Sequence record: LR597647
Origin: Escherichia phage rV5_ev147
Reading direction: 5' to 3' (one strand)
Length of the DNA: 64,000 bases
A program made the position numbers and the translations under genes. Shown here in pieces: positions 2,973 through 58,541 of this stretch. The notes under the pieces were generated by a model. The model worked only from the letters and a program-made list of their open reading frames with translations. It was not told the DNA's origin and did not search any database. Every line of letters starts with the position of its first letter. The stretch's first letter is position 1.

Positions 2973-3529
2973 GAAAGAAAGCTGTCAAAGCCCCCGTTCA
3001 TAACGGGTGGTTAAAAGATTCTAAGGACATAGCCAACTTTCGAAAAGAATTGTCAGAGGAGCAGGATGGTCTTGATCCTATCTTGTGCGAGCCACTTCGT
3101 AAGCCTTGTTTGGATCATGACCATCTGACTGGTCGTTGCAGGGGTGTTTTGTCCCAATGCACTAATACCTTTGAGGGGTATGTGCTTAAATACTGGATGA
3201 AATACTGTAACGAGTATACAGATTGCAGTTTATCAGAGGCGTTGCGCCGGATGGCTGACTATTTGGAGAAAGACTACAGCGACTCCCCGCTCCACAAAAA
3301 CTACAGAGATGATATGACAAAGTTCTTGAGGAGATGCTCTAAAGCTACGATCATTGCACGAGCAGAATCAGATCTCAATCTTGTCATTAATCCGGAGTGC
3401 ACCAAGCATGAGGCTATTGAGTTCTACATGCAGGAGTTTATAAAGAAAACTGAGGAGAGAGATTTCTATGGGGATGAAAAAGGTATTCAATCCTTGCGAT
3501 TCAGTTCTGATCAGGATGAAATACCGTAA
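2924..3529 (+). CDS. endonuclease VII-like (HNH-type) recombination endonuclease
   Basis: CLDHDHLTGRCRGVLSQCTN matches T4 endo VII core (LDHDH..G..RG.LC..CN); start codon uncertain. Confidence 0.7.
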   Translation: MDRQGASGGIIAKRKIRKKAVKAPVHNGWLKDSKDIANFRKELSEEQDGLDPILCEPLRKPCLDHDHLTGRCRGVLSQCTNTFEGYVLKYWMKYCNEYTDCSLSEALRRMADYLEKDYSDSPLHKNYRDDMTKFLRRCSKATIIARAESDLNLVINPECTKHEAIEFYMQEFIKKTEERDFYGDEKGIQSLRFSSDQDEIP

Positions 3530-5549: not shown

Positions 5550-5970
5550 TGCAAAAGCTTTTGGTGAGACAGCGGTACAAAGAGGACAGGCGATGGGACT
5601 GGCACTACCTTTCGTCTTAAAAGAGCACTTTACAGATTTTCAACTTATCAAAGGTGATAAGGGAATGCTTATCCTGGAGCATAAGTTGAGTAAGAAACGC
5701 TATAAAGTCGTTTTTAATTCTAAAGCTCCAACAAAACTGGGATTCAGAACTTACAATCTTAACCCATCCTACACTAAGGGTGTTGGAAGGGTAGAACAAC
5801 AGCATTTCAGTGCCAGAGCTTCTTTAGCCCCTTTGATGCTAAATTTCTCAGGGGTGGCTTTAGGATACCTTGATAAGAAAAGGGTTCTTCATGTTCGTTT
5901 CACAGACTTTGTAACGCTTTTAGCTAACAACGAGGTTGATGAGAAGGGACGTGTAAAAACAAACTTCTAA
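5512..5970 (+). CDS. hypothetical protein
   Basis: ORF collinear. Confidence 0.4.
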   Translation: MIKSIDLTKELTDAKAFGETAVQRGQAMGLALPFVLKEHFTDFQLIKGDKGMLILEHKLSKKRYKVVFNSKAPTKLGFRTYNLNPSYTKGVGRVEQQHFSARASLAPLMLNFSGVALGYLDKKRVLHVRFTDFVTLLANNEVDEKGRVKTNF

Positions 5971-9376: not shown

Positions 9377-11688
9377 TCACCAAGGTAATTAAAAGCAACG
9401 GATGTGAAGTGGCATTCGATCCAGAACGTTTAAATAAGGCAGCTATTTTCGGTGACGATGGTAACGGCAATTGGTCACATATTGCACTGGATGCCTACAA
9501 GCGGTTGTATGATGGATGTACAACCAAAGAAGTTAACCAAGCTATTATAGACTCTTGTGTTAGCCGTAAAGACGAAGCACATTCCCGTATGGCTGGTCGT
9601 GTTCTTATTGGTCAGATCTATAAAGAGGCTTTTGGAGGGTTTACAAAGATCCCTTCCTTACCATCATTTTACAATGACATGGTTGAGAAAGGTTATTGGG
9701 AGGATATGGGTTATAGCTTTACCGAGCTAAACACTTTAGACGCTGTTATTGACCACAGTAAAGATCTCGGTTATGGCTATGCAGTCCTTAAACAGTTTCG
9801 CGACAAATACGGGATCAAGGATACTCTTAAAGACACCTTGTTTGAATCTCCCCAGATGATGTTTATGGGGATAGCAATGGCTGTCATGAAGAATATGCCG
9901 AAAGAACGTCGTATCAACGATGTTGTAAAATTATACACTTATCTGTCCGACTTAAAGATCAATGCCCCAACACCGTACTTAAACGGGCTGCGCACAGGTA
10001 AGACAGGGTATGCATCTTGTTGTGTAATAAAAGCTGACGATACAGCAAAATCTATTGGTGTGGCACGTGAAGTTGCGTACACAATGACGGTTAACCAAGC
10101 AGGTATCGGCTACTACTTATCCTCAAGATCTGCAGGCGATGGTGTTCGTGGTAACACTATTAAACATATGGGTAAGATTCCATATTATCGAGGTATTGAT
10201 GCTGGGGTTAAGGAGAACAGACAACAATCACGTGGTGGTTCTGCAACAGTATCATTCCTTGCACTGGACCCGCAGATTGATGAGCTAATCCGTTTGAGAA
10301 ACCCTATGACTGTTGCTTCAAAAAGAATCAACACCATGGACTACTCCATCGGTATTAATAGGTCGTTTATCAACCGTGTGGCTAAGAATTTAGATTGGAT
10401 GCTTGTTTCTTATAAGCACGCGCCTCAACTGCATGAGGGTATCTTCACCATGTCTATGGAGGAGTTTGATGCAGAGGTTGATCGTATTGCTAAAGATGAC
10501 AGTATTCCTAAAACATGGATCCGAGCTAGAGATCTTGCTGTTGAACTGATCACGCAGCGCACTGAGGTGGGAAGGCTGTACGTATACTGGACAGATGAGA
10601 TGAATAGACATACACCTTTTAAAGATGTGATCTATTCAAGTAACCTGTGTGCAGAAATAGCCCTCCCGACAAAAGGCTATTCAGATATGCGTAATATCTT
10701 CAAGTACGATGCTGATGATGGAGAGGTTGCATTGTGCTTCCTGTCATCTCTTGTAGCTGGAAGGGTTACTCCAGAGGAGTATGAGGATGTTGCATACTAC
10801 ACGGTGCTTATGATTGACAATGTTATGGAAATCATGACATATCCGTATGAAAATATGGAAAGCACAGTTAAAAAACGCAGATCCATCGGGGTTGGCCTTA
10901 CCAATGTTGCACATTTTATTGCCAGCCACAAGGTTACTTACGGGTCTCCTGAAAGTAAACAGCTCGTTCACGATCTTGCAGAACTTCACAGCTACAGCTT
11001 GCATAAGGCAAGTTTACGGTTGGCAAAAGAGCGTGGTGTCTGCGAGTGGATGCATAAAACAAAATATCCAGAAGGTTGGTTACCAATCGACACCTATAAC
11101 AAAGAGGTCGATAGCGTGGTGAAAGATCCTTCTCTTAAACAGGATTGGGAAGGGTTACGTAAAGAAATCATTGAGAATGGTGGGCTACGTAATAGCGTTC
11201 TTGAAGCATATATGCCTAATGAAAGCTCTTCGCTGGCAACAAACACCACTAACGGGGTTTATCCTGTCCGTGAGCACATTATCTTTAAAAAGTCGCCACA
11301 AGGGCAGGTGCTGTTTATCGTTCCTGACTATGATGAGTTGAAAGAGTATTACACCTCGGCTTGGGACGTTGATACTAACGACATGATCGATATGTATGCC
11401 GTGATTCAAAAATTCACAGGTCAGGCAATCAGCGCGGATTTATACATAGACTACACCAAGTTGAAAGATGGTAAAATTTCAATGAAGGAGCAGTTAGGGT
11501 ACCTTATCCGTGCCACTAAATTCGGGATGAAGACATGGTATTATTTAAACTCTAGGGTTGGTGCTGGTGACTCCTTGGCAGAGGAACTTCATGCCAAGAA
11601 ACAGGCTGAAGATGAAACCAGAAAGAACTATCCTTTGATTGCAGATAGTTCAGTTGAAGATCCGTATTGCGAAAGCTGTGCACTATAA
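9373..11688 (+). CDS. nrdA: ribonucleotide reductase class Ia large subunit NrdA (TTG start)
   Basis: N-terminal ATP-cone, catalytic SNLCAEI motif, C-terminal CESC pair; GGAGG RBS. Confidence 0.9.
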   Translation: MITKVIKSNGCEVAFDPERLNKAAIFGDDGNGNWSHIALDAYKRLYDGCTTKEVNQAIIDSCVSRKDEAHSRMAGRVLIGQIYKEAFGGFTKIPSLPSFYNDMVEKGYWEDMGYSFTELNTLDAVIDHSKDLGYGYAVLKQFRDKYGIKDTLKDTLFESPQMMFMGIAMAVMKNMPKERRINDVVKLYTYLSDLKINAPTPYLNGLRTGKTGYASCCVIKADDTAKSIGVAREVAYTMTVNQAGIGYYLSSRSAGDGVRGNTIKHMGKIPYYRGIDAGVKENRQQSRGGSATVSFLALDPQIDELIRLRNPMTVASKRINTMDYSIGINRSFINRVAKNLDWMLVSYKHAPQLHEGIFTMSMEEFDAEVDRIAKDDSIPKTWIRARDLAVELITQRTEVGRLYVYWTDEMNRHTPFKDVIYSSNLCAEIALPTKGYSDMRNIFKYDADDGEVALCFLSSLVAGRVTPEEYEDVAYYTVLMIDNVMEIMTYPYENMESTVKKRRSIGVGLTNVAHFIASHKVTYGSPESKQLVHDLAELHSYSLHKASLRLAKERGVCEWMHKTKYPEGWLPIDTYNKEVDSVVKDPSLKQDWEGLRKEIIENGGLRNSVLEAYMPNESSSLATNTTNGVYPVREHIIFKKSPQGQVLFIVPDYDELKEYYTSAWDVDTNDMIDMYAVIQKFTGQAISADLYIDYTKLKDGKISMKEQLGYLIRATKFGMKTWYYLNSRVGAGDSLAEELHAKKQAEDETRKNYPLIADSSVEDPYCESCAL

Positions 11689-35992: not shown

Positions 35993-36333
35993 TTTGTTTT
36001 CCTCTTCTTGTTCCAGGTGGCGGACCATTCCACCGCCTTATGTATTATGCTTTGTAAGATGGTTGTTTGTTTTCAAACTATTTTAACGATAATCATCGTA
36101 CGCTTTATTAACCTGGCGAATATAACATTCAAAAGCCAGATCAATAGATTTATATTCACGGATATACTCACCATAGGAAACCACATACATTTCTATAGCT
36201 TCCTCATATGCGAGGAGAATAGAATCCAAGCCTACGATCTCAGTCTTTGCAATAATAGCCATGATTTTTATCCTCTTTGTGGTTGGTGGGGCTTGCCCCT
36301 TTGATTTATATACTACAGTCTTATATGGTCATG

Positions 36334-36567
36334 TCAACTATTTTCAAAAAATTTTTCTGCTGTGATATTTTTCCCGGTAGGGTTCGCTACTTTCAAAATT
36401 TTATCATGCACTGGACGCCCAAAAGAATAAGCGCCGTACACAGTACACCAATAATCGCCGTCAGGCTGTACTATTACCGCCGCATAGGGTACGCCTTTTT
36501 CGTTTTTGCTGACAAAATAGATCACGTTGCCATTAATAGCCTCGGCGCGTTTAATTTGTTCCATCAT
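36334..36567 (-). CDS. hypothetical protein
   Basis: RBS aagagagg; GC hairpin upstream. Confidence 0.45.
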   Translation of the reverse strand: MMEQIKRAEAINGNVIYFVSKNEKGVPYAAVIVQPDGDYWCTVYGAYSFGRPVHDKILKVANPTGKNITAEKFFENS

Positions 36568-36622
36568 GATGATTTGCCTCTCTTTATTTTCATAATTGGG
36601 GGCCTTTTCGGCCCCGCCAGGT

Positions 36623-36907
36623 TTATTTGTTGATAGCGTGCAGCGGGAAAGGTACGCCAGGTTGATAGATAACTTTTACAACCTCATCAGGGCAAAAGAA
36701 ATTACAAAATTCACCCTGATAAGCCTCATCCTCTTTTAATTCTTCATCAACATACTGGAAAAAGTAGTCAATGCTTGGATAATCCTGACCGGGATTATAT
36801 TCAACCATGGTTAATAACAATTCTTGATCATTCCGTATGATATGCATACCAGCTTTTAAGTATTTGGCTTCCATTTCTACTACATCGCCAACGGTAACAA
36901 TAGCCAT
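36623..36907 (-). CDS. hypothetical acidic protein
   Basis: RBS aggagtt. Confidence 0.45.
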   Translation of the reverse strand: MAIVTVGDVVEMEAKYLKAGMHIIRNDQELLLTMVEYNPGQDYPSIDYFFQYVDEELKEDEAYQGEFCNFFCPDEVVKVIYQPGVPFPLHAINK

Positions 36908-37114
36908 GGTTTTAACTCCTATCTATCCGGTTAATGATTGGAGGCCTCACCGCCCCCCCGACACCCTTTATTATCCATATTGTAGGACTTGATGCAAGTA
37001 CTTCTTTAAAAATTTTTTAAGCGCCTTGGGGGCCGCTGTAACGCCAAAATAATAAAGGCTATGCAACCGCATAGCCTTTATGTGATTATATCGCTGCAGG
37101 CCCTGCCAGGGGCC

Positions 37115-37465
37115 TTATTTTGCATTCTTTCCTATATTGCCGCTACGGTACCAGCGTTTACGGTGAAAATGGTAATAATCACCATCGGCATTAAACATCA
37201 GATGATTTTCAATAACCAGCTTACGAAGGTGGGCCGGATCTTGTTCCATTCTTGCCAGATTCTGGCGGCTGTTACGTAAGCGGATAAATTCCATATTCAG
37301 GCCGTTGATTGCAGCATGGATGTCAAAGTAACCACCTTTGAGACGTTCACGCATGGAGTTAAGCTCAACACAATATACAGATTTCTCACAAATCAAGGTA
37401 TTAGCCAGGGCGCGGACCTGGGCAAGGGGGTTAAGCTCATTAAGGTAATATAGTTTTACTTTCAT
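37115..37465 (-). CDS. hypothetical protein
   Basis: ORF. Confidence 0.45.
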   Translation of the reverse strand: MKVKLYYLNELNPLAQVRALANTLICEKSVYCVELNSMRERLKGGYFDIHAAINGLNMEFIRLRNSRQNLARMEQDPAHLRKLVIENHLMFNADGDYYHFHRKRWYRSGNIGKNAK

Positions 37466-37482
37466 AAAATCACCTGCTGAAA

Positions 37483-37788
37483 TTAGTTTGAGAAAACATC
37501 GTTCACAATAGCGATCACAATGCCGCCCACCTTGTCACGGTCAACAATGCACAAATCACCATAGATCATGTGGTAGTCTGGATGATCTTTCACGGAATAA
37601 TCAATGAGTGTTTTCTTGTCATCCAGCTTACTAACTTCCATTCTCATAACGATATGAGAATCATCAAAGGCATTATTCCGAAAAGTCATAACCTGACCGC
37701 CAGGGCACCCGGTGATTTCCACCTCCACGCCGTCTACGATCTGACCATCAAAGAAATAAAGATTATTAGCCTGGATAAACATGATCAT
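37483..37788 (-). CDS. hypothetical protein
   Basis: RBS aaaggag before ATG at 37788. Confidence 0.45.
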   Translation of the reverse strand: MIMFIQANNLYFFDGQIVDGVEVEITGCPGGQVMTFRNNAFDDSHIVMRMEVSKLDDKKTLIDYSVKDHPDYHMIYGDLCIVDRDKVGGIVIAIVNDVFSN

Positions 37789-37826
37789 TACTCCTTTTTG
37801 CACTGATTATTTTAACAGGGTTTAAA

Positions 37827-37870
37827 TTTACTTTATTGATGGCCCTGGAGTCAAGGCCATCTAAAAATAA
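37827..37870 (-). promoter_or_regulatory. conserved 44-bp element, copy 1 (palindrome GATGGCC-n10-GGCCATC with embedded TTGACT)
   Basis: identical to copies at 41566 and 42187; lies between stop of upstream gene and RBS of next. Confidence 0.5.
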
Positions 37871-37873
37871 ATT

Positions 37874-38074
37874 TTACAGGCCTACAATCTCTTTAATTCG
37901 TTTTACTGCTGCCTCAGCGCCTTGAGGGTAAAAATTATGGTAACCAATCACGCGAGTGATACTAATCGCCGTTTGATGATCTTCATAATCACCTTTAAAG
38001 ATTTCTTGACCGTCAATCAGCACGGCAATTTTTTCTTCTTTTTTGAAGTTAATAACGCGGATATTGTTGCTCAT
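37874..38074 (-). CDS. hypothetical protein
   Basis: RBS aaaggagaaac; 5' UTR hairpin GGGGAG-aca-CTCCCC. Confidence 0.45.
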   Translation of the reverse strand: MSNNIRVINFKKEEKIAVLIDGQEIFKGDYEDHQTAISITRVIGYHNFYPQGAEAAVKRIKEIVGL

Positions 38075-38169
38075 TTTGTTTCTCCTTTTGGAACTTTGTC
38101 TATGCGGTGGGGAGTGTCTCCCCGTTGATTGTTATTATCCATATTCTGGATCGGATTGCAACACTCAGG

Positions 38170-38210
38170 GAGAAAAAAATTTGAAAAGTTAGGCCCCAGG
38201 GATCGGGGCC
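38170..38210 (-). terminator. rho-independent terminator (minus strand)
   Basis: GGCCCC-gatccct-GGGGCC followed by T-runs. Confidence 0.55.
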
Positions 38211-38553
38211 GTTATCAATTACTTACAGCGATAAAATACATCCCTACGCCTAACAATATTTCAAGGGCGATGATCTCAAGCCATACCATAACACGGCGCG
38301 CCTTATCGGTGCGGGGCTTATCCTTGGGTGTCATCGTCTCCCCCTTTCCTCCTGTTAGCAGTGACGTGGTTTGCAATGGCCCCCAGGAGTATTATCACCA
38401 CGCACATTACAAGAAAAATTATCTCTGTCGTTGTTCGATCCATTGTTATAAAATTCCTTAAGATCAGGCCTGAAAATAAAGCTTTCGTTATTGAATCCAT
38501 CCCGCCAGGCGGCTGGCTTCAAATCTTCACTAAAGGGGTTAATTAACGTGGCA

Positions 38554-38925
38554 TTATTTAAACGGCTGGTCCACATATTTTCTATTCCTCTCAAATAGGC
38601 GATCCGCCTCAGTTAAACAAATCTCATGGGCGTGATCTCTGGTTTTAGCTTCATCGAAAACCTGTTGTGCAAGGCTGCAACGTAGGGAGACTGGAAGATC
38701 GCTGTAGTAGGCGTTGACAAATGTTTGAGCGTCGTACAGGTCTGAAAATACTTTACCCTTTCTATTATTCCCCTTGTCAACAATTGCAAGGATAACAAGT
38801 ACAATAGTTGCAACCACCCCCAGGAAAATAGATATAATAAACCATAAAAAAGCGGATCTACCCATCTTGCCAGCGATCCAGGCGTTGAACAAGGCAACTA
38901 CTACAGCCAAAATAATAAATTCCAT
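38554..38925 (-). CDS. membrane protein
   Basis: RBS aagagg before ATG at 38925; two TM segments. Confidence 0.45.
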   Translation of the reverse strand: MEFIILAVVVALFNAWIAGKMGRSAFLWFIISIFLGVVATIVLVILAIVDKGNNRKGKVFSDLYDAQTFVNAYYSDLPVSLRCSLAQQVFDEAKTRDHAHEICLTEADRLFERNRKYVDQPFK

Positions 38926-38989
38926 TCTATGTACCTCTTTTGCAGTTCTGTTTAACAATAAGGCGGCAAATATGCCGCCTGTTACCTGA

Positions 38990-39370
38990 TTAAAAAATAT
39001 CGCCGTAAATCTTTCCGCTTTCTGCCCACACCACCACGCGGGGCATGTTATCCCATACATCTTGTTTCAGATTTAACGCGTGCAATTCTTCGGTGGTGCT
39101 CATACCGGGCACGGGCTGATTGTATACTGCAAAACGACCGCCTGCATAATCATAGGCCAGAGTTAAATCACACTGGATCATCTTTTTGATCATGGCGTTA
39201 AGCATAGCGTTAGCCGCGTACTGGTCACGTTTTAAAGGCAACTCTTTGATTAGTTTGCGATAGTTTTCGATATGGTCGCACACTGTTTCACGTGGAAGAT
39301 CTTTCATATCTTCACGGAATGTAACCAGGTTAAACATAACGGTGTCAATAGCTTTAGTAGTGTTTTTCAT
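38990..39370 (-). CDS. hypothetical protein
   Basis: RBS aaagaggaaaac. Confidence 0.45.
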   Translation of the reverse strand: MKNTTKAIDTVMFNLVTFREDMKDLPRETVCDHIENYRKLIKELPLKRDQYAANAMLNAMIKKMIQCDLTLAYDYAGGRFAVYNQPVPGMSTTEELHALNLKQDVWDNMPRVVVWAESGKIYGDIF

Positions 39371-39460
39371 GATGTTTTCCTCTTTGTTTTGTGGGGGGCA
39401 AGTCATCTCGCCCCTTGAGTTTTTAATATAGCAGGTTTTTAGATTATTGCAACACTTTAT

Positions 39461-40084
39461 TTATGAAAAACTCATCTCCCCATATTCATCCACATCAAAC
39501 CGCCAATCATTGGCTTCAATAAGGCCGATCAGGTTTTCGGTAGTAAACTGTTCAAGATAGGCCTCCTCCAGGTCTACGTAAACCTTGCGGGATAGCTCCC
39601 GTACCGTCTCGGTGATCAGCTCTTCCAGCTCTTCAACTTTGTCCTCTTGCTTGGTGGTCAGGTCTAGCCAATTAGTATCGATGCACCCTCCTATTGTGTT
39701 TTCGTGATGATAATGGCTAAACGGGATACGTTCAACACTGGCTGATAACTCGCCATCGTGCATTGTGCCGAACAAGTGACGAATTGATCGGAACTTGGTC
39801 AGGGCCTTTACTTTACGCAAGAATTTTTCTAAATCCACGTTTTCAGCACTGATTGACGCGCCATCGCCTTGACACCAAAAGCCGGACCAACGTACTTCGG
39901 TATCTTCAAGGCCGTACTCTGGAAAGACATATTCTTTATAGTGTTCAATTACACTTTCTGCAAAAAAATTATCCCCGCTGTGTTCTTCTCTTTCGCGGAC
40001 CATTTCAATAGCTTTTTCTTTTTGTTCGTCGGTCAGCACGTCGAAAGATAAATTGTAACCTGTGGTAATGTTAACGGTGGTCAT
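39461..40084 (-). CDS. hypothetical acidic protein
   Basis: promoter, hairpin and RBS upstream. Confidence 0.45.
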   Translation of the reverse strand: MTTVNITTGYNLSFDVLTDEQKEKAIEMVREREEHSGDNFFAESVIEHYKEYVFPEYGLEDTEVRWSGFWCQGDGASISAENVDLEKFLRKVKALTKFRSIRHLFGTMHDGELSASVERIPFSHYHHENTIGGCIDTNWLDLTTKQEDKVEELEELITETVRELSRKVYVDLEEAYLEQFTTENLIGLIEANDWRFDVDEYGEMSFS

Positions 40085-40141
40085 GATATTTTCTCCTATT
40101 TTCTTTGTTAGTGGCGGGAAGTTTTCCCGCCTGTGTGTTTA

Positions 40142-40169
40142 AGTATACTTATCGAGATTTACTTGTCAA
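40142..40169 (-). promoter_or_regulatory. sigma70-consensus promoter (TTGACA-16-TATACT) with downstream 5' UTR hairpin
   Basis: hexamers at 40164-40169 and 40142-40147 (minus); hairpin GGCGGGAA-gttt-TCCCGCC at 40113-40131. Confidence 0.6.
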
Positions 40170-40419
40170 CACTATTTTTTAAATTATTGTGGCGTAAAAT
40201 GTTCAAGATCTCTTCAACGTCATCAACACGGCGGCAATTTTTAAACGCTACCAGTTGCCCCAGTATTTTAATCACTGGACGGCCTTGCCAGTGCCCTTGG
40301 AGAAAGCGAGCTTTAACTTTATCGGTGGAACTATCACGCCACCAAATGGCCTTGTTGTTGCAGTAGTAAAAATTATTCAGGACAACATCAACTTTATCAA
40401 AATTTTTTAATTTACGCAT
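40159..40419 (-). CDS. hypothetical basic protein
   Basis: ORF. Confidence 0.4.
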   Translation of the reverse strand: MRKLKNFDKVDVVLNNFYYCNNKAIWWRDSSTDKVKARFLQGHWQGRPVIKILGQLVAFKNCRRVDDVEEILNILRHNNLKNSVDK

Positions 40420-40451
40420 GGCGTTTACTCCTTTCTCTCTTTGATGTGGTT

Positions 40452-40479
40452 AGTATAGCTAACCTGTTTAAGATGTCAA
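40452..40479 (-). promoter_or_regulatory. sigma70-consensus promoter (TTGACA-16-TATACT)
   Basis: hexamers; RBS aaaggag before ATG 40419. Confidence 0.55.
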
Positions 40480-40621
40480 GCTTTAAATAAAATCACTGTC
40501 AATGATATTTTTAACGCCATAAAACGGCCCTAAGCGATGTTTTCAGGTTAAAGGGGGGGCGATTGCATAGGTGGGGCCTTTTTGGCGCTTACAGGGCCAA
40601 CCGGGGGCGCTATTCGTAGGA

Positions 40622-40659
40622 TAGAAATAAAAAGCCCCGCACAATGGCGGGGCGTTGGT
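40622..40659 (-). terminator. rho-independent terminator (minus strand)
   Basis: CGCCCCGC-cattgt-GCGGGGC followed by TTTTTATTT. Confidence 0.6.
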
Positions 40660-40661
40660 TG

Positions 40662-40859
40662 TTATTTGCCTTTGTGGCGGTATCGTTCCGCCTGTCGTTC
40701 ACGTTCCAAAAGCAGGCCCGGTAATTTGCGATCATAATGATTCCGCCAGATCTTCCCAAATCTTTTTGGCTTATTCAGTTTATTGTTGCGCTGGCGGCGT
40801 TCCGGCAGCTCTTCGGAAGCATGAGATCGCTTTACAATCTTCTCAAAATTAATCTTCAT
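40662..40859 (-). CDS. hypothetical basic protein
   Basis: RBS aggggggaa before ATG at 40859. Confidence 0.4.
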   Translation of the reverse strand: MKINFEKIVKRSHASEELPERRQRNNKLNKPKRFGKIWRNHYDRKLPGLLLERERQAERYRHKGK

Positions 40860-40913
40860 ATATTCCCCCCTTGCTAACTTCAATATTGGCCTGAATAGCC
40901 CGGATACGGCGCT

Positions 40914-41201
40914 TTATAACTTCCTGATCTGTGTGATCGTATCCCAAAAGTCTACGATTTTTGCGCCTCCAGCCTTTAGGCGGTATAGTGTTTCTTGCAT
41001 CTTGTAAGCCGGGATCGGTCGCGGTGTTACCTGGTCGCCCTTCTCATTCTTGTACTTGATAATATAGTCTTCATTGTCGTTGAATACCCAAAACGGGTAT
41101 TCTGTAAGGGCGTTGCTATCTTTTTCGTTTTTAGATTGGATCTTGTTTACAATTAAAGCCGTAGCAATAGCGCCAATAATAAAACTTGCCCCGCTGATCA
41201 T
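40914..41201 (-). CDS. small protein with N-terminal TM segment
   Basis: RBS aaaggagaaag before ATG at 41201. Confidence 0.45.
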   Translation of the reverse strand: MISGASFIIGAIATALIVNKIQSKNEKDSNALTEYPFWVFNDNEDYIIKYKNEKGDQVTPRPIPAYKMQETLYRLKAGGAKIVDFWDTITQIRKL

Positions 41202-41276
41202 GTACTTTCTCCTTTCATTGTATTGATAAACTATCTTTATAGATGGCCCTGCTACCAGGACCACCGAAAAAACAGC

Positions 41277-41522
41277 TTATTTGACGATACCGACAAAACA
41301 GATCCCGCCTTCCCCTATATAGGCAATATCGGTAATTTTATAATTTGTCAAGATCCGCGTGTTCAGATCATTAATAAAATCGGTCATCGCGTTGGTGTAG
41401 TTGTCTTCCGTGTCTAAGGCATAATCCCAGGTGTACACCTTTTTACGTCCGAAGCCTTTTACCATGATACGGGCGCTTTTGGTGTTGGTAGGGGCATAAT
41501 ATTTGGTGATTAGTGCTGCCAT
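41277..41522 (-). CDS. hypothetical protein
   Basis: RBS aggagtt; copy 2 of 44-bp element upstream. Confidence 0.45.
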   Translation of the reverse strand: MAALITKYYAPTNTKSARIMVKGFGRKKVYTWDYALDTEDNYTNAMTDFINDLNTRILTNYKITDIAYIGEGGICFVGIVK

Positions 41523-41565
41523 GGTTTTAACTCCTATGCATTAGTTCAGTGTTAACAGTATAAAG

Positions 41566-41609
41566 TTTACTTTATTGATGGCCCTGGAGTCAAGGCCATC
41601 TAAAAATAA
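41566..41609 (-). promoter_or_regulatory. conserved 44-bp element, copy 2
   Basis: TTGACT-18-TAAACT reading on minus strand, palindrome GATGGCC/GGCCATC. Confidence 0.5.
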
Positions 41610-41611
41610 TC

Positions 41612-41953
41612 TTACTCGTTTTCTTCCAGTTCTGCAAGCTCTTCTTTTGCTTCTTCTAACTCTGTCTGTAATTCCTGGTATTCTTCATCGTCCTCAATAT
41701 CCAGGCTGTCGATGTAGTCGCTAAATCCGCAGCGGTAAGCGATAGGATCTAGCTCCTTGAGGATACGCGACGGAAGAAAAGAAATGTTTCCGATCATAAT
41801 TTCGCCGTAGATCTCGTCTAACCATTCATCATAGTTTTCGTCGTACTTGTCCTCGTCGATTTCAAAGTTATCGATCTTGTTCTCAAGGTCTGCGATCTGT
41901 TTTTTCAGTGCGGCGATCTGAATAGCTTTTTCTGCGGCGGTCATAGTAGTCAT
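41612..41953 (-). CDS. acidic coiled-coil protein
   Basis: RBS aaaggagaaaac; promoter and hairpin upstream. Confidence 0.45.
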   Translation of the reverse strand: MTTMTAAEKAIQIAALKKQIADLENKIDNFEIDEDKYDENYDEWLDEIYGEIMIGNISFLPSRILKELDPIAYRCGFSDYIDSLDIEDDEEYQELQTELEEAKEELAELEENE

Positions 41954-42004
41954 GGTGTTTTCTCCTTTTGTGTGCTCTGGGAAGTTTTCCCGTTTACGTG
42001 TTTA

Positions 42005-42032
42005 AGTATATCAATCTAAGTTAGCTTGTCAA
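42005..42032 (-). promoter_or_regulatory. sigma70-consensus promoter (TTGACA-16-TATACT)
   Basis: hexamers; hairpin GGGAA-gtt-TTCCC downstream. Confidence 0.6.
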
Positions 42033-42152
42033 TTAAAAATTTAAGAAAAATTTTGCAAAACTGTTAGCGCTACTCATTAACATTTGCGCCAGGATGTAAC
42101 CGACAACGCAGGCGATAATAGTTACCTTTGTGTATTGGCGTGTAGTGCTCAT
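42024..42152 (-). CDS. 42-aa membrane peptide
   Basis: downstream of 44-bp element copy 3; hydrophobic core. Confidence 0.3.
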
Positions 42153-42186
42153 CTTAAAGCCCCCTTTTTCGCTTAGCTGAGATTAA

Positions 42187-42230
42187 TTTACTTTATTGAT
42201 GGCCCTGGAGTCAAGGCCATCTAAAAATAA
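42187..42230 (-). promoter_or_regulatory. conserved 44-bp element, copy 3
   Basis: same 44-mer. Confidence 0.5.
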
Positions 42231-42232
42231 AT

Positions 42233-42637
42233 TTAGTAAGTTTTAAGTACTTTACCGTCTAACCTGTCAAGCTGGATCTCAATAGCTGCAGAGAATCTAT
42301 TGTACACCACATCGCCCATAGAATCCAACCAGTCTATGACATTATACACTTGCTCTTTGTTCTTGCAGGTCCGGATCCGTTTCATGATGTAAGCCGGATC
42401 AATATTGGTACTCTCGTTGGTGCTCCCCTGTACCTGGTTTGCCGTATTAGTTACATCTTTAATGGCCTTTACCACCACCTGGAATGGCTTTAAGGTGCCT
42501 TTTGCGTTCATCTCACGCGCTTTTGCGGCGCGGTTGTTATATGTTACACAACGGCGGCAAATGTTGATCAAATGCATGTCAATAATTTTTTCATCGTTTG
42601 CCAGTTCATTCATGATGCGGCGTACGTTCTTATTCAT
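42233..42637 (-). CDS. hypothetical protein
   Basis: promoter, hairpin and RBS upstream. Confidence 0.45.
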   Translation of the reverse strand: MNKNVRRIMNELANDEKIIDMHLINICRRCVTYNNRAAKAREMNAKGTLKPFQVVVKAIKDVTNTANQVQGSTNESTNIDPAYIMKRIRTCKNKEQVYNVIDWLDSMGDVVYNRFSAAIEIQLDRLDGKVLKTY

Positions 42638-42685
42638 GATCTTTTTCCTTTGTGTTGGCGGGAAACATTCCCGCCTTTTGTGACT

Positions 42686-42714
42686 AGTTTACTTGAATTT
42701 TGCAGCGTGTCAAC
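42686..42714 (-). promoter_or_regulatory. sigma70-like promoter (TTGACA-17-TAAACT) with 5' UTR hairpin
   Basis: hairpin GGCGGGAA-tgtt-TCCCGCC at 42653-42675. Confidence 0.6.
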
Positions 42715-42719
42715 AATTT

Positions 42720-43118
42720 TTATTCGTGGGCGCATGTTACAATGTGCTTTTTATAGCCAAGGTGGTTAGCAAGTGCCGACAAAAACTCTTCTTCATAGAT
42801 CCAGCCGTTGGCAGTGATCCCCATAGCATTTAATGCGCTCTCAAGTGCTGCATTAGCTTTATCGTAACCGTGACCGCTCGCCTTCCCGCCAGTATAACCG
42901 TACTTATTGTTCTTGTTGTCGTGAATCCAAAAAACGCAGTATTGAGTGTTCCCGCTGGCGGCGGCATAATACCGGATCTCAGCTACTTCGTGCAAATTAT
43001 TGTCATCGTCCAGGCCAACCAGATTATAAGCCTTGTAGAATCCACGATCACGGCGGCAGTTCTTGACATCAGAAAAAGAAAAGTCCGCATTATCAAAGTT
43101 AAAGGTAGTGGTTTTCAT
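42720..43118 (-). CDS. hypothetical protein
   Basis: RBS aagaggat. Confidence 0.45.
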   Translation of the reverse strand: MKTTTFNFDNADFSFSDVKNCRRDRGFYKAYNLVGLDDDNNLHEVAEIRYYAAASGNTQYCVFWIHDNKNNKYGYTGGKASGHGYDKANAALESALNAMGITANGWIYEEEFLSALANHLGYKKHIVTCAHE

Positions 43119-43182
43119 GATTTTATCCTCTTAGTGTCTTTTGTGCTTTTAGTGTATTTGGTGTCGGACTATATGTCAATAC

Positions 43183-43380
43183 CTATTTTTTATTAAACCA
43201 GTGGTTGATCTGGCCTTTTGTCAGGGCGCAACGATTAAGCTGTTGCCGGGTATAGCTCTGACCGCGACGGAATTTATAAAGGCCTTGCCCGTTGTTGATG
43301 GTTACGTCCGCCTGGCAAACCATTTGATCGGTGACGGCCTGGCGAGTGTTGCGACGTACTTTAATTCCGTAGGCGTTCAT
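43183..43380 (-). CDS. hypothetical basic protein
   Basis: RBS agagagg. Confidence 0.4.
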   Translation of the reverse strand: MNAYGIKVRRNTRQAVTDQMVCQADVTINNGQGLYKFRRGQSYTRQQLNRCALTKGQINHWFNKK

Positions 43381-43468
43381 GATTTTTATCCTCTCTGTTA
43401 ATTAGTGTGGTGTTGTTCACCTTGCGAGGATAAGAATAACAGAACTATCCGAGCTGTCAACCATTGGT

Positions 43469-43639
43469 TAGAATTTTTTTGGTAAGAATTCTCCAGCCGC
43501 CGCCCCTGCCAGGTTAACCATCATTTTTTCGTACTCTTCTTTATGTTCCAACGCTCCCGCCATAGCCTTTTCAACCAGGGCGATAGCCTCAGCGTCATTA
43601 ATAGCTACATTTTCCAGGGGGATCATATTACCTTTCATT
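43469..43639 (-). CDS. 56-aa hypothetical protein
   Basis: strong RBS gaggagg 7 nt before ATG. Confidence 0.4.
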
Positions 43640-44165
43640 TTTGTACCTCCTCTTCAATTGTTACCTATCCTATAGCATAGGCCCACCAGGTTTGCAAGCC
43701 TTCATTCTCTCCTACCTGGTCAGTTAGGTCCTGCCAGGCTGGCCCCGCCAGGTTGCAGCGGTCAGCGCATCAGGTTAGAAAAATTTTTTTGAAAAGTGTT
43801 GACAGCGGCCCCGCCAGGTGGCACAATATACCTATCGAAAGGACGGCAGGCACCGGTGACGGGGAGACAACCACCGGGGATGGGCGCTGCATAAAATGAG
43901 AACGGTTATCATTATCGTCTAAAAATTTATGCAAAAACTTCTTGCTTTCTTTGTCCTGTGTGTTACTATAATAACAAGCCGGGGCAGTAGGGGCCGGGAG
44001 ACAATCACCGGGGGTGCCCGTTATTCTGCAAACGAGAATGATTATCATTCAAAATTCTAAATGAGAACTTTTCTCATTTCATAAATTTAGTTAGCATGCT
44101 AATTACCTACCGTGACAATTCTATATAAAATAATACCTCCTAAAATATTTCCATATACAAATTTT

Positions 44166-44365
44166 AAAAATCCATTTCCGAAAACGAAAAATCGCTTTCG
44201 TTCCCAAAAATTTTAGACCTGGTGCTGGACCAATTTCAAGAAAATCCGATTCAGAAAACGAAAAACAGATCGAGTACTGAGAAGTTTATCGAGAAAAATT
44301 TTCAGAAAATTCAATCTTTGAAACGAAAAACAGATCGAGTACCTAGAAAGCTGCACCGCAATTTC
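44166..44365. repeat. three degenerate tandem repeats of about 65 bp (AAAAT-C-ATT...GAAAACGAAAAA...ATTTCAAG)
   Basis: units starting near 44166, 44232, 44296; GAAAACGAAAAACAGATCGAGTAC duplicated. Confidence 0.45.
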
Positions 44366-48309: not shown

Positions 48310-48371
48310 TTTTCAGATCTCCTTATACAAAAATGCCCCACCCTTTCGGGCAGGGCTATGTTAACTAGATG

Positions 48372-52458: not shown

Positions 52459-52862
52459 TGATCGGTCTCCTTCTTGTTAAGTCTGAATACTGCAATAATA
52501 GCATTCCCAAGGTGCAGTGTCAAATCATTTCCAAGATACCACAGCATCCCACGGTCATCTTTAATGAAAGGGTAGCAATTTGGTGCCTTCTCTTTAATGA
52601 AAGGGTGACAATCTGGTGCCTTCCAGACATTGTACACTTTCCCAACCTGAAAGAAATCAGGCCCTGTCGGGATTTTGGTGCCTGGCCACACTTGAGATAC
52701 CTGAACACACTCCACCTGCATAATAACAGGGATAGTCATGGATGTAAATGTTTTTGTTGGCTCTACTACCATAAAAGTCTCCTCTTTGCTCAACAACACT
52801 TCCATGTGTTGATAGTTTACATTAGTGACAATCACCCCAATTACGACCACACAAGTATTCAC
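52455..52862 (-). CDS. small protein, paralog family 4 (with internal 11-aa duplication)
   Basis: IKDDRGMLWYLGNDL; KAPDCHPFIKE/KAPNCYPFIKD tandem. Confidence 0.45.
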   Translation of the reverse strand: MNTCVVVIGVIVTNVNYQHMEVLLSKEETFMVVEPTKTFTSMTIPVIMQVECVQVSQVWPGTKIPTGPDFFQVGKVYNVWKAPDCHPFIKEKAPNCYPFIKDDRGMLWYLGNDLTLHLGNAIIAVFRLNKKETDQ

Positions 52863-57736: not shown

Positions 57737-58520
57737 TAATTCTGCTCCTTACTACAGGCTCGTTTGCCAGGAATACGGCTTTTGCCCAGCCACGTGGTGT
57801 GAGGCTTCGAATCATCTTCGTTCTTGCACTCTTTCCACCCAGCTTGGCGTGTTGCATGGAATACCCGCTAACCACGTCAACTATTTGCGGGACAGGTTTT
57901 GTGGCTGGGATTATAAATCCATTACCTATCCAGCCGCAAGTTATTTTTGGATAGGCATCACGTGGAGCTATAAATTCAGGAAACCATGGGTTTACATCAT
58001 CTTCCGGTAAATACCCGCCATAATCCGAAGGGTGAAAACGGTAATCAGGTTTGCGCCACAGTGTGGACATAACACCCACAGGATTCTCTACATGCCACGG
58101 GCAATCGTAAATCTCTCCCAGCTCTTCCGCAACCCGAGCATCCTTTACAGCATTAATTTGGATCATGGGGTCCTTAGCCAGCTTTTTCTTAAAATGTGCA
58201 GCACCTGATACCGCTAAATGCGTGCACGGAGGAAATGCAAGAATAAAATCTGGAGCCGGATACATGCAAAAAGTTTCCTGAGGGAACCACGGGTCAATCC
58301 AATAGTCCACATAGTGAATGTTGGGATGATCGGTGATCACCTCTGCATAACTGCCGTGATCAGCGCCTTCTGCATTAAAGCACAGGCACAGGTACCCAGC
58401 TTTTGCCCAGTCAATGACTGCACCACCAGACCCGTCAAATAGACTCCACACAACACCTTTGTGGTAGTGTTCTTTGTAGATAAATTTCAATTTGCTGTCT
58501 CCTAATGCAAAAAGCCCCAC
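57726..58520 (-). CDS. DNA cytosine-5 methyltransferase (compact)
   Basis: motif I LFDGSGG, motif IV FPPCTHLAVSG (PC dyad), motif VI HVENPVG. Confidence 0.65.
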   Translation of the reverse strand: MGLFALGDSKLKFIYKEHYHKGVVWSLFDGSGGAVIDWAKAGYLCLCFNAEGADHGSYAEVITDHPNIHYVDYWIDPWFPQETFCMYPAPDFILAFPPCTHLAVSGAAHFKKKLAKDPMIQINAVKDARVAEELGEIYDCPWHVENPVGVMSTLWRKPDYRFHPSDYGGYLPEDDVNPWFPEFIAPRDAYPKITCGWIGNGFIIPATKPVPQIVDVVSGYSMQHAKLGGKSARTKMIRSLTPRGWAKAVFLANEPVVRSRINGK

Positions 58521-58541
58521 CCTTTCGGGCAGGGCCTAGTG

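What the first reader, a model, noticed from the sequence alone, without database searches (positions are those of the whole stretch)
37827..42230. Conserved 44-bp palindrome-containing element in three identical copies between minus-strand genes
TTTACTTTATTGATGGCCCTGGAGTCAAGGCCATCTAAAAATAA occurs at 37827, 41566 and 42187. Read on the minus strand it places a TTGACT inside a 7-bp palindrome (GATGGCC/GGCCATC) about 18 bp upstream of TAAA(T/C)T, so it could be a promoter whose -35 overlaps an operator. Each copy sits just after a stop codon and just before the next RBS.
Basis: seen in the sequence. Interest (0 to 1): 0.55.

Follow-up and report, generated by a model that had tools for sequence, protein, structure and literature searches.

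The report
Repeated RNA hairpin between phage genes
The three identical 44-base repeats, plus a fourth diverged copy, in this rV5-type E. coli phage encode a conserved two-tier RNA hairpin between early genes that closely resembles phage T7's RNase III cutting sites, and the repeats also serve as recombination points that delete the genes between them; this is a familiar kind of element, newly recognised in this phage group.

Summary
The 44-mer occurs exactly three times (37827, 41566, 42187), and a fourth diverged copy lies at 41226-41280. The window is Escherichia phage rV5_ev156 (Vequintavirus), and these four are the only copies in its 136-kb genome. About 120 Vequintavirus records carry the element, usually in three copies.

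The signal lies mainly in the RNA. The sense (minus) strand folds into a 10-13-bp A-U lower stem, a 2x3 internal loop, a 10-bp upper stem and a tetraloop (-22.7 to -28.2 kcal/mol; the antisense strand folds much more weakly). Across 36 variants 92.5% of cells are paired. Upper-stem changes are all G·U wobbles that work only on the sense strand. Lower-stem pairs show compensatory changes, and the loop varies freely. The fourth copy keeps the fold but has no -35.

The architecture matches the T7 early RNase III sites. A covariance model of the element, run on T7, ranks R1, R0.3 and R1.1 as its top three hits in the early region, and the known R1.1 cut maps to the U of AAU.

Chimeric elements with deleted intervening genes show recombination between copies, as with T4 PeSLs.

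The promoter reading (9/12 match, 18-nt spacer) is not excluded but has no independent support, and the operator reading is not supported. No experimental data exist. This is a new member of a known kind, of moderate interest.

The parts
37825..37873 (-). Copy 1 of the structured element. Lower stem 37864-37873 with 37825-37834; 5' internal loop UA 37862-37863; upper stem 37852-37861 with 37838-37847; tetraloop ACUC 37848-37851; 3' internal loop AAU 37835-37837. Predicted RNase III cut between 37835 and 37834.
   Evidence: Exact repeat; RNA fold -23.6 kcal/mol, z -4.2; covariation; model hit of 82.5 bits.
41564..41612 (-). Copy 2 of the structured element. Upper stem-loop 41577-41600; AAU 41574-41576. 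Predicted cut between 41574 and 41573.
   Evidence: -22.8 kcal/mol, z -5.8; 79.3 bits.
42185..42233 (-). Copy 3 of the structured element. Upper stem-loop 42198-42221; AAU 42195-42197. Predicted cut between 42195 and 42194.
   Evidence: -22.7 kcal/mol, z -5.4; 83.2 bits.
41226..41280 (-). Fourth, diverged copy. It has the same two-tier fold: a 13-bp lower stem, a 2x3 internal loop (UC / UAU), a 10-bp upper stem GGUGGUCCUG/CAGGGCCAUC with two G·U pairs, and tetraloop GUAG. It has no TTGAC. Predicted cut between 41239 and 41238.
   Evidence: 68% identity; -28.2 kcal/mol, z -7.0; antisense -9.4; 71.6 bits.
42233..42637 (-). 134-aa gene upstream of copy 3. Its stop codon (42233-42235) forms the base of the lower stem.
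   Evidence: PHROG of unknown function.
42686..42713 (-). Sigma-70 promoter-like site (TTGACA-16-TAAACT, 10/12) that would drive the 134-aa gene and read through copy 3.
42033..42152 (-). 39-aa gene downstream of copy 3.
42005..42032 (-). Sigma-70 promoter (TTGACA-16-TATACT, 11/12; P192 of the rV5 paper) that drives the 113-aa gene and reads through copy 2 and the fourth copy.
41612..41953 (-). 113-aa gene upstream of copy 2.
41277..41522 (-). 81-aa gene flanked by copy 2 and the fourth copy. It is deleted in phage 241Ecol014PP by recombination between the two elements.
40914..41201 (-). Gene downstream of the fourth copy (95 aa here, 117 aa in relatives). No promoter of its own was found.
40634..40653 (-). 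First canonical intrinsic terminator downstream of copy 2 and the fourth copy (GC stem followed by TTTTTATTT).
37874..38074 (-). 66-aa gene upstream of copy 1.
38134..38161 (-). Promoter-like site (TTGCAA-16-GATAAT, 9/12), followed by a 5'-UTR GC hairpin, upstream of the 66-aa gene.
37483..37785 (-). 100-aa gene downstream of copy 1.

Best explanation
Each copy is transcribed as part of a polycistronic early mRNA on the minus strand. There it folds into a hairpin of about 21-23 bp, with a 10-13-bp A-U lower stem, a 2x3 internal loop, a 10-bp upper stem and a tetraloop. I propose that this hairpin is a T7-type, single-cut processing signal for host RNase III. The enzyme would bind the two helical turns, read the U-A/U·G 'distal box' under the loop, and cut the 3' strand at the end of the internal loop (...GGCCAUCAAU^AAAGUAAA). 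The upstream cistron would then end in a protective 10-bp hairpin, and the downstream cistron(s) would be released as a separate mRNA with a 5'-monophosphate end, which uncouples their stabilities. Shown here: the repeats, the fold, its strand specificity, its covariation, its intercistronic position inside operons, and its resemblance to the T7 sites. Inferred: that RNase III is the enzyme, where it cuts, and the effect on mRNA stability. Separately, at the DNA level, the roughly 45-bp identical repeats act as substrates for homologous recombination that deletes the gene cassettes between them. That is shown by chimeric elements in related genomes.
For: (1) RNA-level, strand-specific structure. 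Sense-strand folds are -22.7 to -28.2 kcal/mol (z -4.2 to -7.0), against -9.4 to -18.1 (z -1.4 to -2.6) for the antisense strand. The model scores 72-83 bits on the sense strand and 33-42 on the antisense strand. (2) Covariation over 36 distinct variants from 17 genomes. 92.5% of cells are paired, against 36-56% with slid partners. The covariation score is 0.167 against at most 0.064, and 0 of 500 shuffles reach it. The upper helix is 99.7% paired, and its four variable pairs change only through G·U. Six pairs of the 13-pair lower helix, four of them within the 10-bp lower stem that RNAalifold also predicts, show changes on both sides. The fourth copy differs at about 30% of positions yet folds identically. 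(3) The loop is the variable part: ACUC, ACAC, ACGC, ACCC, ACUU, ACAU, AUUC. (4) Context. Every copy lies between cistrons, starts at the stop codon of the upstream gene, is downstream of a promoter with no terminator in between, and the next canonical terminators are further on. (5) Match to the T7 sites. With the same folding tool, T7 R0.3, R1 and R1.1 show a 9-10-bp upper stem, a tetraloop, a 3-nt 3' internal loop reading UAU or AAU, and a lower stem. With filters off, model R1 built only from the rV5 element gives as its top three hits in the T7 early region full-length, in-register alignments to R1, R0.3 and R1.1. Over the whole T7 genome, 3 of the 4 hits of at least 10.6 bits are these sites. 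T7 nucleotide 5887, the published R1.1 cleavage position (PMC8708148), aligns to model column 45, the U of AAU. (6) RNase III recognition rules (PMC1540722). These are an 11-bp helix from the cut to the tetraloop, with a distal box of U-A then U·G next to the loop-closing pair. The three main copies have exactly G-C (closing), U-A and U·G. They have A-U at proximal-box position 2, and a non-Watson-Crick A·A at position 4, where natural R1.1 has U·C. (7) A strict sequence-independent descriptor of this architecture finds only these four loci in 136 kb and none in 20 shuffles. (8) Recombination. L028 lacks window 41272-41559 and L015 lacks 41613-42186, and in each case the alignment blocks overlap by 46-47 nt on a chimeric element.
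Against: There are no experimental data of any kind, and no transcript mapping for this phage group was found. Each T7 hit is individually non-significant (E 1.5-2.9). R0.5, R1.3 and the five late T7 sites were not retrieved. Proximal-box positions 1 (U-A instead of G-C) and 3 (G-C instead of A-U) are non-canonical. In the fourth copy, distal-box position 2 is C-G and proximal-box position 2 is G·U, changes that lower reactivity in the uR1.1 model substrate. The near-perfect sequence conservation of the stems, with no double compensatory change in the upper stem across more than 100 genomes, exceeds what a purely structural RNase III site needs. It could reflect a second, overlapping function or gene conversion between copies. 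The sequences are closely related, so the compensatory changes represent only about 4-5 independent events. T7's R0.3, R1 and R1.1 coordinates other than 5887 are recalled from Dunn & Studier 1983, not checked against a record.
Confidence: 0.5

Rival explanations
1. The element is a PeSL-like composite cassette whose main role is at the DNA level. It would be an internal sigma-70 early promoter (-35 TTGACN in the hairpin loop, 18-nt spacer, -10 TAAAYT, A/T-rich upstream tract) that gives the downstream small gene its own transcription start. The stem-loop would attenuate read-through from upstream. This is compatible with, not exclusive of, RNA processing.
For: The hexamers are present in all three main copies and in nearly all orthologs, and two EdH4 copies have the perfect TTGACA. 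PhagePromoter called this site in phage Gotham. PeSLs are defined as a sigma-70 promoter with an AT-rich upstream region plus a stem-loop that can overlap the -35, lying between ORFans, and recombining to give chimeric elements (PMC2839356). The chimeras are observed here. T7 itself has the E. coli promoter C start (3113) inside the R1 hairpin region.
Against: The match is 9/12 with an 18-nt spacer, a class common by chance (47 found against 28 expected), whereas true early promoters here score 10-12/12 with 16-17-nt spacers. The rV5 authors did not list it among 33 promoters. The fourth copy conserves the fold but has no -35. The conserved TTG is accounted for by the stem, and the observed variation hits the remaining hexamer positions. 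The -10 covaries with its pairing partner, which a promoter does not require. The long A-U lower stem and the G·U-only variation have no role in a promoter. There are only four copies, not dozens spread over hyperplastic regions.
Confidence: 0.25
2. The element is a structured RNA that works without RNase III. It could be a barrier to 3'-to-5' exonucleases that stabilises the upstream cistron after cleavage elsewhere, for example by RNase E. It could also be a specific binding site for a phage or host RNA-binding protein that regulates translation or decay of the neighbouring genes.
For: The same structural and covariation evidence applies. The sequence conservation is very high, including unpaired positions (internal loop UA/AAU and the AAAG that follows), which suggests sequence-specific recognition. 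The stop codon always abuts the lower stem.
Against: This does not explain the specific likeness to the T7 RNase III sites, namely the 10+1-bp geometry, the WAU internal loop and the canonical distal box. No candidate binding protein was identified, and all flanking proteins are of unknown function.
Confidence: 0.15
3. The element is a Rho-independent transcription terminator, as annotated in phage Murica.
For: It is a stable GC-containing hairpin directly after a stop codon. It is annotated 'terminator' at two of the loci in NC_041871.
Against: There is no U-tract. The stem is followed by AAUAAAGUAAA on the sense strand and UAAAAAUAA on the other strand. It is not listed by the terminator scan, which does find the canonical terminators nearby. 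It is not among the 20 terminators of the rV5 paper. Genes downstream of the fourth copy have no promoter of their own, so that hairpin must be read through (inference).
Confidence: 0.04
4. The element is a DNA palindrome serving as an operator or other protein-binding site on double-stranded DNA, as in the first reader's operator idea.
For: There is a perfect 7-bp inverted repeat, conserved in over 100 genomes.
Against: Where the arms differ between copies, symmetry is kept only as G·U on the sense RNA and not as DNA symmetry. The strand asymmetry of folding and model scores has no meaning for a dsDNA site. The flanking A-U helix covaries as RNA.
Confidence: 0.04

Closest known systems
Phage T7 early-region RNase III processing signals (R0.3, R1, R1.1; the R1.1 model substrate)
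   Same: Both are intercistronic hairpins in host-RNAP early polycistronic mRNA. Both span two helical turns, split by an asymmetric internal loop about 10-11 bp below a tetraloop. The 3' side of the loop reads AAU (as in T7 R1) or UAU (as in T7 R0.3 and R1.1, and the fourth copy here). The U-A/U·G distal box lies under the loop-closing pair, as in R1.1. The rV5-derived covariance model picks these three T7 sites as its best hits in the T7 early region.
   Different: There is no detectable common ancestry, since only structure and short motifs are shared. Proximal-box positions 1 and 3 differ from the R1.1 optimum. The rV5 copies are nearly identical to each other, whereas the T7 sites differ from one another. 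Their lower stem starts at the stop codon of the upstream gene. The host phage is an unrelated 136-kb myovirus. Cleavage is untested.
PeSL (promoter-early stem-loop) cassettes of T4-type phages (Arbiol et al. 2010; Comeau et al. 2014)
   Same: Both are short conserved repeats between small early genes of unknown function, running from a stop codon to the next Shine-Dalgarno sequence. Both have a sigma-70-like promoter motif with an AT-rich upstream tract and a stem-loop that can overlap the -35. Recombination between copies leaves a chimeric element and deletes the flanked gene.
   Different: PeSL promoters are strong consensus promoters, and their GC-rich stem-loops were shown to terminate transcription. 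Here the promoter match is weak (9/12, 18-nt spacer), there is no U-tract, and the conserved unit is a long two-tier RNA helix. There are only four copies in one 4.4-kb stretch rather than dozens. The other promoter-plus-GC-hairpin cassettes in this window (for example 40116-40169 and 41979-42032) fit the PeSL description better than this element does.
Intercistronic stabiliser hairpins and REP-type elements in bacterial operons
   Same: Both are repeated, stable hairpins without U-tracts located after stop codons inside operons, and both can protect upstream mRNA from 3' exonucleases.
   Different: REP elements are host-chromosomal, have a different consensus and bind gyrase or IHF. This element is phage-specific (genus Vequintavirus only) and has the internal-loop geometry of an RNase III site.

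Membership tests
T7-type (single-cut) E. coli RNase III processing signal | Hairpin with about two helical turns (at least about 20 bp) of dsRNA | tested here: met
   A 10-bp upper stem plus a 10-13-bp lower stem in all four copies.
T7-type (single-cut) E. coli RNase III processing signal | Internal loop at the scissile position, about 11 bp below the tetraloop, which limits cleavage to the 3' strand | tested here: met
   A 2x3 internal loop directly below the 10-bp upper stem, so position 11 is an A·A (main copies) or C·U (fourth copy) non-pair. This is the same layout as T7 R1, R0.3 and R1.1 folded with the same tool.
T7-type (single-cut) E. coli RNase III processing signal | Distal box: U-A then U·G pairs next to the loop-closing pair (Pertzev & Nicholson 2006) | tested here: met
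   The main copies read 5'-UUG[loop]CAG-3', giving G-C (closing), U-A and U·G, and this is invariant in 28 main-type variants. It is not met in the fourth copy, which has C-G in place of U·G.
T7-type (single-cut) E. coli RNase III processing signal | Proximal box: pb1 G-C, pb2 A-U/U-A (no G-C), pb3 A-U, pb4 A-U/U-A or non-Watson-Crick (no G-C) | tested here: inconclusive
   In the main copies pb2 is A-U (met) and pb4 is A·A (acceptable), but pb1 is U-A and pb3 is G-C (both non-optimal). In the fourth copy pb2 is G·U. Natural T7 sites also depart from the R1.1 optimum.
T7-type (single-cut) E. coli RNase III processing signal | Lies in a transcribed, intercistronic part of a polycistronic mRNA, in the sense orientation | tested here: met
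   All copies lie between minus-strand genes, downstream of promoters, with no terminator in between. G·U pairs occur on the sense strand only. Transcription itself is inferred, not measured.
T7-type (single-cut) E. coli RNase III processing signal | Scores as similar to bona fide sites in a joint sequence-and-structure comparison | tested here: met
   With filters off, model R1 gives T7 R1, R0.3 and R1.1 as its top three hits in the T7 early region, full-length and in register, with T7 nt 5887 at the U of AAU. Individual E-values are weak, and seven other T7 sites were not found. In the negative control PVP-SE1, the three best hits shown skip the upper stem.
T7-type (single-cut) E. coli RNase III processing signal | Actual site-specific cleavage by RNase III in vitro, and rnc-dependent ends in vivo | not testable with these tools
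   No transcript-end or biochemical data were found for Vequintavirus.
PeSL (promoter-early stem-loop) cassette | Strong consensus sigma-70 early promoter | tested here: not met
   TTGACT-18-TAAAYT is 9/12 with a suboptimal spacer. Neighbouring early promoters score 10-12/12 with 16-17-nt spacers. The site is absent from the rV5 promoter list, and the fourth copy has no -35.
PeSL (promoter-early stem-loop) cassette | AT-rich tract upstream of the -35, and a stem-loop within or next to the promoter | tested here: met
   TTATTTTTA lies upstream, and the stem-loop encloses the -35.
PeSL (promoter-early stem-loop) cassette | The stem-loop acts as a transcription terminator or attenuator | not testable with these tools
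   There is no U-tract and the terminator scan does not list it. Read-through is required for the genes after the fourth copy (inference).
PeSL (promoter-early stem-loop) cassette | Recombination between copies yields a chimeric element and loss of the flanked ORFan | tested here: met
   The L028 chimera (copy 2 / fourth copy) lacks the 81-aa gene. The L015 chimera (copy 3 / copy 2) lacks the 39-aa and 113-aa genes. The alignment blocks overlap by 46-47 nt on the element.
PeSL (promoter-early stem-loop) cassette | Many copies spread through hyperplastic regions | tested here: not met
   There are four copies within 4.4 kb and none elsewhere in the 136 kb.
Rho-independent terminator | GC-rich hairpin followed directly by a U-tract | tested here: not met
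   The stem is followed by AAUAAAGU (sense strand) or UAAAAAUA (antisense strand), and the terminator scan does not list it.

The most novel reading that the evidence does not exclude
The element is a compact, triple-coded cassette specific to Vequintavirus. The same roughly 50 nt would serve as an RNase III (or phage-factor) processing site in read-through mRNA, as a weak internal sigma-70 promoter, and as a portable recombination module that lets small early genes be gained and lost. This overlap of codes, or recognition by a dedicated phage protein, would explain why almost every base except two loop positions is frozen across more than 100 genomes.
Probability: 0.2. Interest if true: 0.55.

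Novelty: new member of a known kind. Interest (0 to 1): 0.38.

Why it matters
rV5-like phages (Vequintavirus) are widely isolated and used for biocontrol and therapy of E. coli, yet their gene regulation is essentially uncharacterised. Public records annotate this same element in contradictory ways: as a promoter, as a terminator, or not at all. If it is an RNase III processing site, host RNase III shapes early gene expression in a large myovirus in the way it does in T7. That would give a directly testable prediction of four cut sites, correct existing annotations, and supply a compact natural part for splitting operon mRNAs. The chimeric elements also document a simple repeat-mediated route by which these phages lose small early genes, which matters when comparing or engineering therapeutic isolates.

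Tried and rejected
- **Rfam scan of 36000-44000 at permissive threshold:** no relevant family.
- **Literature:** the rV5 genome paper and its Table S4 list neither a promoter nor a terminator at these sites. No Vequintavirus transcriptome or transcription-start mapping was found.
- **IMG/VR pattern scan with CAGGGCCATCNATAAAG:** 18 loci, of which only the three Vequintavirus stretches carry the hairpin. The rest were chance matches that do not fold.
- **tblastn with the 81-aa gene as an anchor to reach distant relatives:** the gene exists only in Vequintavirus and a few unrelated siphoviruses, so it gave no distant orthologous intergenic regions.
- **Sister genus check:** phage PVP-SE1 (Seunavirus) has no model hit. 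With filters off, its three best hits shown skip the upper stem.
- **T7 late region:** the late RNase III sites were not retrieved. R0.5 and R1.3 were not retrieved either.
- **T7 site coordinates:** I tried to read the T7 RNase III site features from NC_001604 and V01146, but they are not exposed. Only R1.1 = 5887 could be confirmed from a paper. Two literature searches for the other coordinates found nothing.
- **Terminator reading:** rejected for lack of a U-tract.
- **DNA-operator reading:** rejected because of sense-strand-only G·U variation.
- **A first start codon for the gene after the fourth copy:** my coordinate was off by one and was corrected.

Full report
**Identity of the window and check of the observation.** The 44-mer occurs exactly three times, at 37827, 41566 and 42187, and never in shuffled sequence. 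The window is 100% identical to Escherichia phage rV5_ev156 (LR694165.1), record positions 72385-136384, genus Vequintavirus. All genes around the copies run on the minus strand. They are small early genes belonging to PHROG families of unknown function. A repeat search revealed a fourth, diverged copy (68% identity) at about 41229-41278. A covariance model and a sequence-independent structural descriptor both find only these four loci in the whole 136-kb genome.

**Distribution.** The 44-mer is present in 120 phage records, all Vequintavirus-like. Seventeen of those are labelled 'Campylobacter phage'. Most records have three places, and 107 records match at 100% identity, while the surrounding region is typically 92-97% identical. 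Across orthologous copies the 49-nt structured core is 96-97% identical, against 71-91% for the next 30 nt of intergenic DNA. The sister genus Seunavirus (PVP-SE1) has no copy. Annotators disagree. PhagePromoter calls the site a promoter in phage Gotham, Murica's record calls it a terminator, and the rV5 genome paper lists it as neither. Rfam has no matching family.

**Anatomy.** On the sense (minus) strand the RNA folds into a two-tier hairpin:
- a lower A-U-rich stem of 7-13 bp in the individual folds (10-13 bp in the consensus), which begins at the stop codon of the upstream gene
- an internal loop of 2 nt on the 5' side (UA) and 3 nt on the 3' side (AAU)
- a 10-bp upper stem, GAUGGCCUUG/CAGGGCCAUC, with one U·G pair
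- a tetraloop, ACUC

The fold energies are -22.7 to -28.2 kcal/mol (z -4.2 to -7.0). The antisense strand reaches only -9.4 to -18.1 (z -1.4 to -2.6), because the U·G pair becomes an A·C mismatch. The fourth copy has the same architecture with a different sequence: upper stem GGUGGUCCUG/CAGGGCCAUC, loop GUAG, internal loop UC/UAU, and a 13-bp lower stem.

**Comparative test of the structure.** I extracted every copy from 17 Vequintavirus loci and aligned the 36 distinct gap-free sense 60-mers.
- For the proposed structure, 92.5% of cells form standard pairs, against 36-56% when partners are slid by 1-3 columns.
- The covariation score is 0.167, against at most 0.064 in the slid controls, and no shuffle of 500 reaches it.
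- The upper helix is 99.7% paired. Its four variable pairs change only between Watson-Crick and G·U.
- The lower helix has pairs with changes on both sides: A-U/G-C, U-A/C-G, U-A/G·U/A-U and A-U/U-A.
- RNAalifold predicts the same structure independently.

The sequences are closely related, so these amount to only a handful of independent events, and I weigh them accordingly. The variable positions are concentrated in the tetraloop (ACUC, ACAC, ACGC, ACCC, ACUU, ACAU, AUUC), which is what a stem-constrained element predicts.

**Transcriptional context.** Strong consensus promoters (10-12 of 12, 16-17-nt spacers) lie at 42713-42686 and 42032-42005, and a weaker promoter-like site lies at 38161-38134. 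Each drives one gene and then meets a copy of the element with no terminator in between. The next canonical terminators are at 40653-40634 and 37081-37052. The layout is therefore promoter, gene, element, then one or more genes. The genes after the fourth copy have no promoter of their own. That hairpin must therefore be read through, which argues against a terminator. As a promoter the element scores 9 of 12 with an 18-nt spacer, a class found 47 times in this 13 kb against 28 expected by chance.

**Comparison with RNase III substrates.** Pertzev and Nicholson (PMC1540722) showed that E. coli RNase III needs an 11-bp helix between the cut and the tetraloop. It also needs a distal box of U-A then U·G next to the loop-closing pair, and a 4-bp proximal box next to the cut. 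Internal loops restrict cleavage to one strand and leave a protective 3' hairpin. The three main copies read 5'-UUG[loop]CAG-3'. This gives a closing G-C, then U-A, then U·G, which is the canonical distal box at the canonical place.
- Position 11 below the loop is the A·A of the internal loop, where natural R1.1 has U·C.
- Proximal-box position 2 is A-U.
- Proximal-box positions 1 and 3 are non-optimal (U-A and G-C).
- The fourth copy has a non-canonical distal box.

Folding the T7 early sites with the same tool shows the same plan. There is a 9-10-bp upper stem, a tetraloop (a 5-nt loop in R0.5), a 3-nt 3' internal loop reading UAU (R0.3, R0.5, R1.1) or AAU (R1), and then a lower stem. R1.3 lacks the internal loop.

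**An objective test of the resemblance.** I built a covariance model from the rV5 alignment only and scanned T7 with filters off.
- In the 8-kb early region, both strands, the three best hits are full-length, in-register alignments at T7 3096-3153, 848-905 and 5843-5902. These are R1, R0.3 and R1.1.
- In the remaining 31 kb there is one unrelated hit, so 3 of the 4 hits of at least 10.6 bits in the whole T7 genome are RNase III sites.
- Each E-value alone (1.5-2.9) is not significant. The coincidence is, because known sites occupy well under 1% of the positions scanned.
- T7 nucleotide 5887, the published R1.1 cleavage position (PMC8708148), aligns to model column 45, the U of AAU. My recalled positions for R1 (3138) and R0.3 (890) map to the same column.
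- In PVP-SE1, hits of similar score skip the upper stem altogether.
- R0.5, R1.3 and the five late T7 sites were not retrieved, so the likeness is to one architectural subclass of T7 sites.

**Proposed mechanism.**
- Shown: a conserved, strand-specific, intercistronic RNA hairpin of two helical turns with a T7-like internal loop.
- Inferred: host RNase III cuts once, after AAU. On the minus strand this is between window 37835|37834, 41574|41573, 42195|42194, and perhaps 41239|41238. The upstream cistron would be left with a 3' hairpin, and the downstream cistron(s) would be released with a 5'-monophosphate end, which separates their fates.
- The stop codon always sits at the base of the lower stem. 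A terminating ribosome would therefore open the helix, so processing may be coupled to translation of the upstream gene. This is speculation.

**DNA-level behaviour.** Two related genomes carry chimeric elements. In phage 241Ecol014PP (L028) the 5' half of copy 2 is joined to the 3' half of the fourth copy, and window 41272-41559 (the 81-aa gene) is missing. In an IMG/VR contig (L015) copy 3 is joined to copy 2, and window 41613-42186 (the 39-aa gene, its promoter and the 113-aa gene) is missing. In both cases the alignment blocks overlap by 46-47 nt exactly on the element. Some records hold only one or two copies, and in Gotham one copy has a 5-nt deletion in the 3' arm. Variants are often shared between copies within a genome, for example two ACAC loops in EdH4 and two ACUU loops in isim, which suggests gene conversion. 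This is the behaviour described for T4-type PeSL cassettes (PMC2839356, PMC4122927).

**Rivals.**
- Promoter (PeSL-like) reading: not excluded and could coexist with processing. T7 has the E. coli promoter C start inside the R1 hairpin region. However, every conserved base of the hexamers is already explained by the RNA structure, the match is weak, and the fourth copy lacks the -35.
- Structured RNA acting without RNase III (an exonuclease barrier or a protein-binding site): this fits the very high sequence conservation but not the specific T7 likeness.
- Terminator reading: fails on the U-tract.
- DNA-operator reading: fails on strand asymmetry.

**Verdict.** The best-supported reading is a T7-type RNase III processing hairpin in early operons that also acts as a recombination repeat. 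It is a new member of known kinds in an uncharacterised phage group. Confidence is moderate (0.5) because nothing has been tested experimentally.

Noticed in passing
window 40116-40169 and 41979-42032 (minus strand); similar units near 42657-42713, 38105-38161 and 39380-39452: These are repeated cassettes made of a consensus sigma-70 promoter (TTGACA-16/17-TATACT) followed by a GC-rich 5'-UTR hairpin (for example GGCGGGAAAACUUCCCGCC) and then an RBS and ATG. They fit the published description of T4-type PeSL cassettes better than the 44-mer does.
   Followed up: partly
window 44158-44348: Three imperfect direct repeats of about 52 nt (62-100% identity, spacing 74 and 65 nt), rich in AAAACGAAAAA motifs, lie in a stretch with only very short ORFs. 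A 17-pair hairpin was flagged at 44211-44174. This could be an iteron-like or non-coding RNA region.
   Followed up: no
window 40914-41201 (minus strand): The gene just downstream of the fourth copy encodes 95 aa here but 117 aa in EdH4 and other relatives. The two are 88% identical over the first 86 residues and then diverge, which points to a C-terminal frameshift or truncation in this 'evolved' rV5 isolate.
   Followed up: partly
window 40662-40859 (minus strand): This 65-aa gene is annotated in relatives as 'T7 gp1.1-like' (Murica gp107; 241Ecol014PP_00198). In T7, gene 1.1 is the gene immediately downstream of the R1.1 RNase III site. This is a curious coincidence and was not analysed further.
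   Followed up: no
public records matching window 36000-44000 (for example MG065635, MG065655, MG065662): About 17-22 GenBank records named 'Campylobacter phage', with host Campylobacter jejuni, are 93-95% identical to this E. coli Vequintavirus over the region and carry the same three elements. Their host labels look doubtful.
   Followed up: no
window 48330-48356 and 58509-58535: Two near-identical copies (96%) of a terminator-like sequence, AAAA(T/A)GCCCCACCCTTTCGGGCAGGGC. They correspond to terminators t213 and t232 of the rV5 paper.
   Followed up: no
window 52558-52623: A tandem duplication of a 33-nt unit (91% identity), TCTTTAATGAAAGGGTAGCAATTTGGTGCCTTC. Its coding context was not examined.
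   Followed up: no
L005 (phage Gotham MT682716) 9497-9540: The ortholog of copy 3 has a 5-nt deletion (GGGCC) in the 3' arm. This destroys the hairpin and shortens the putative promoter spacer to 13 nt, so it is either a natural loss-of-function copy or an assembly error at a hairpin.
   Followed up: no
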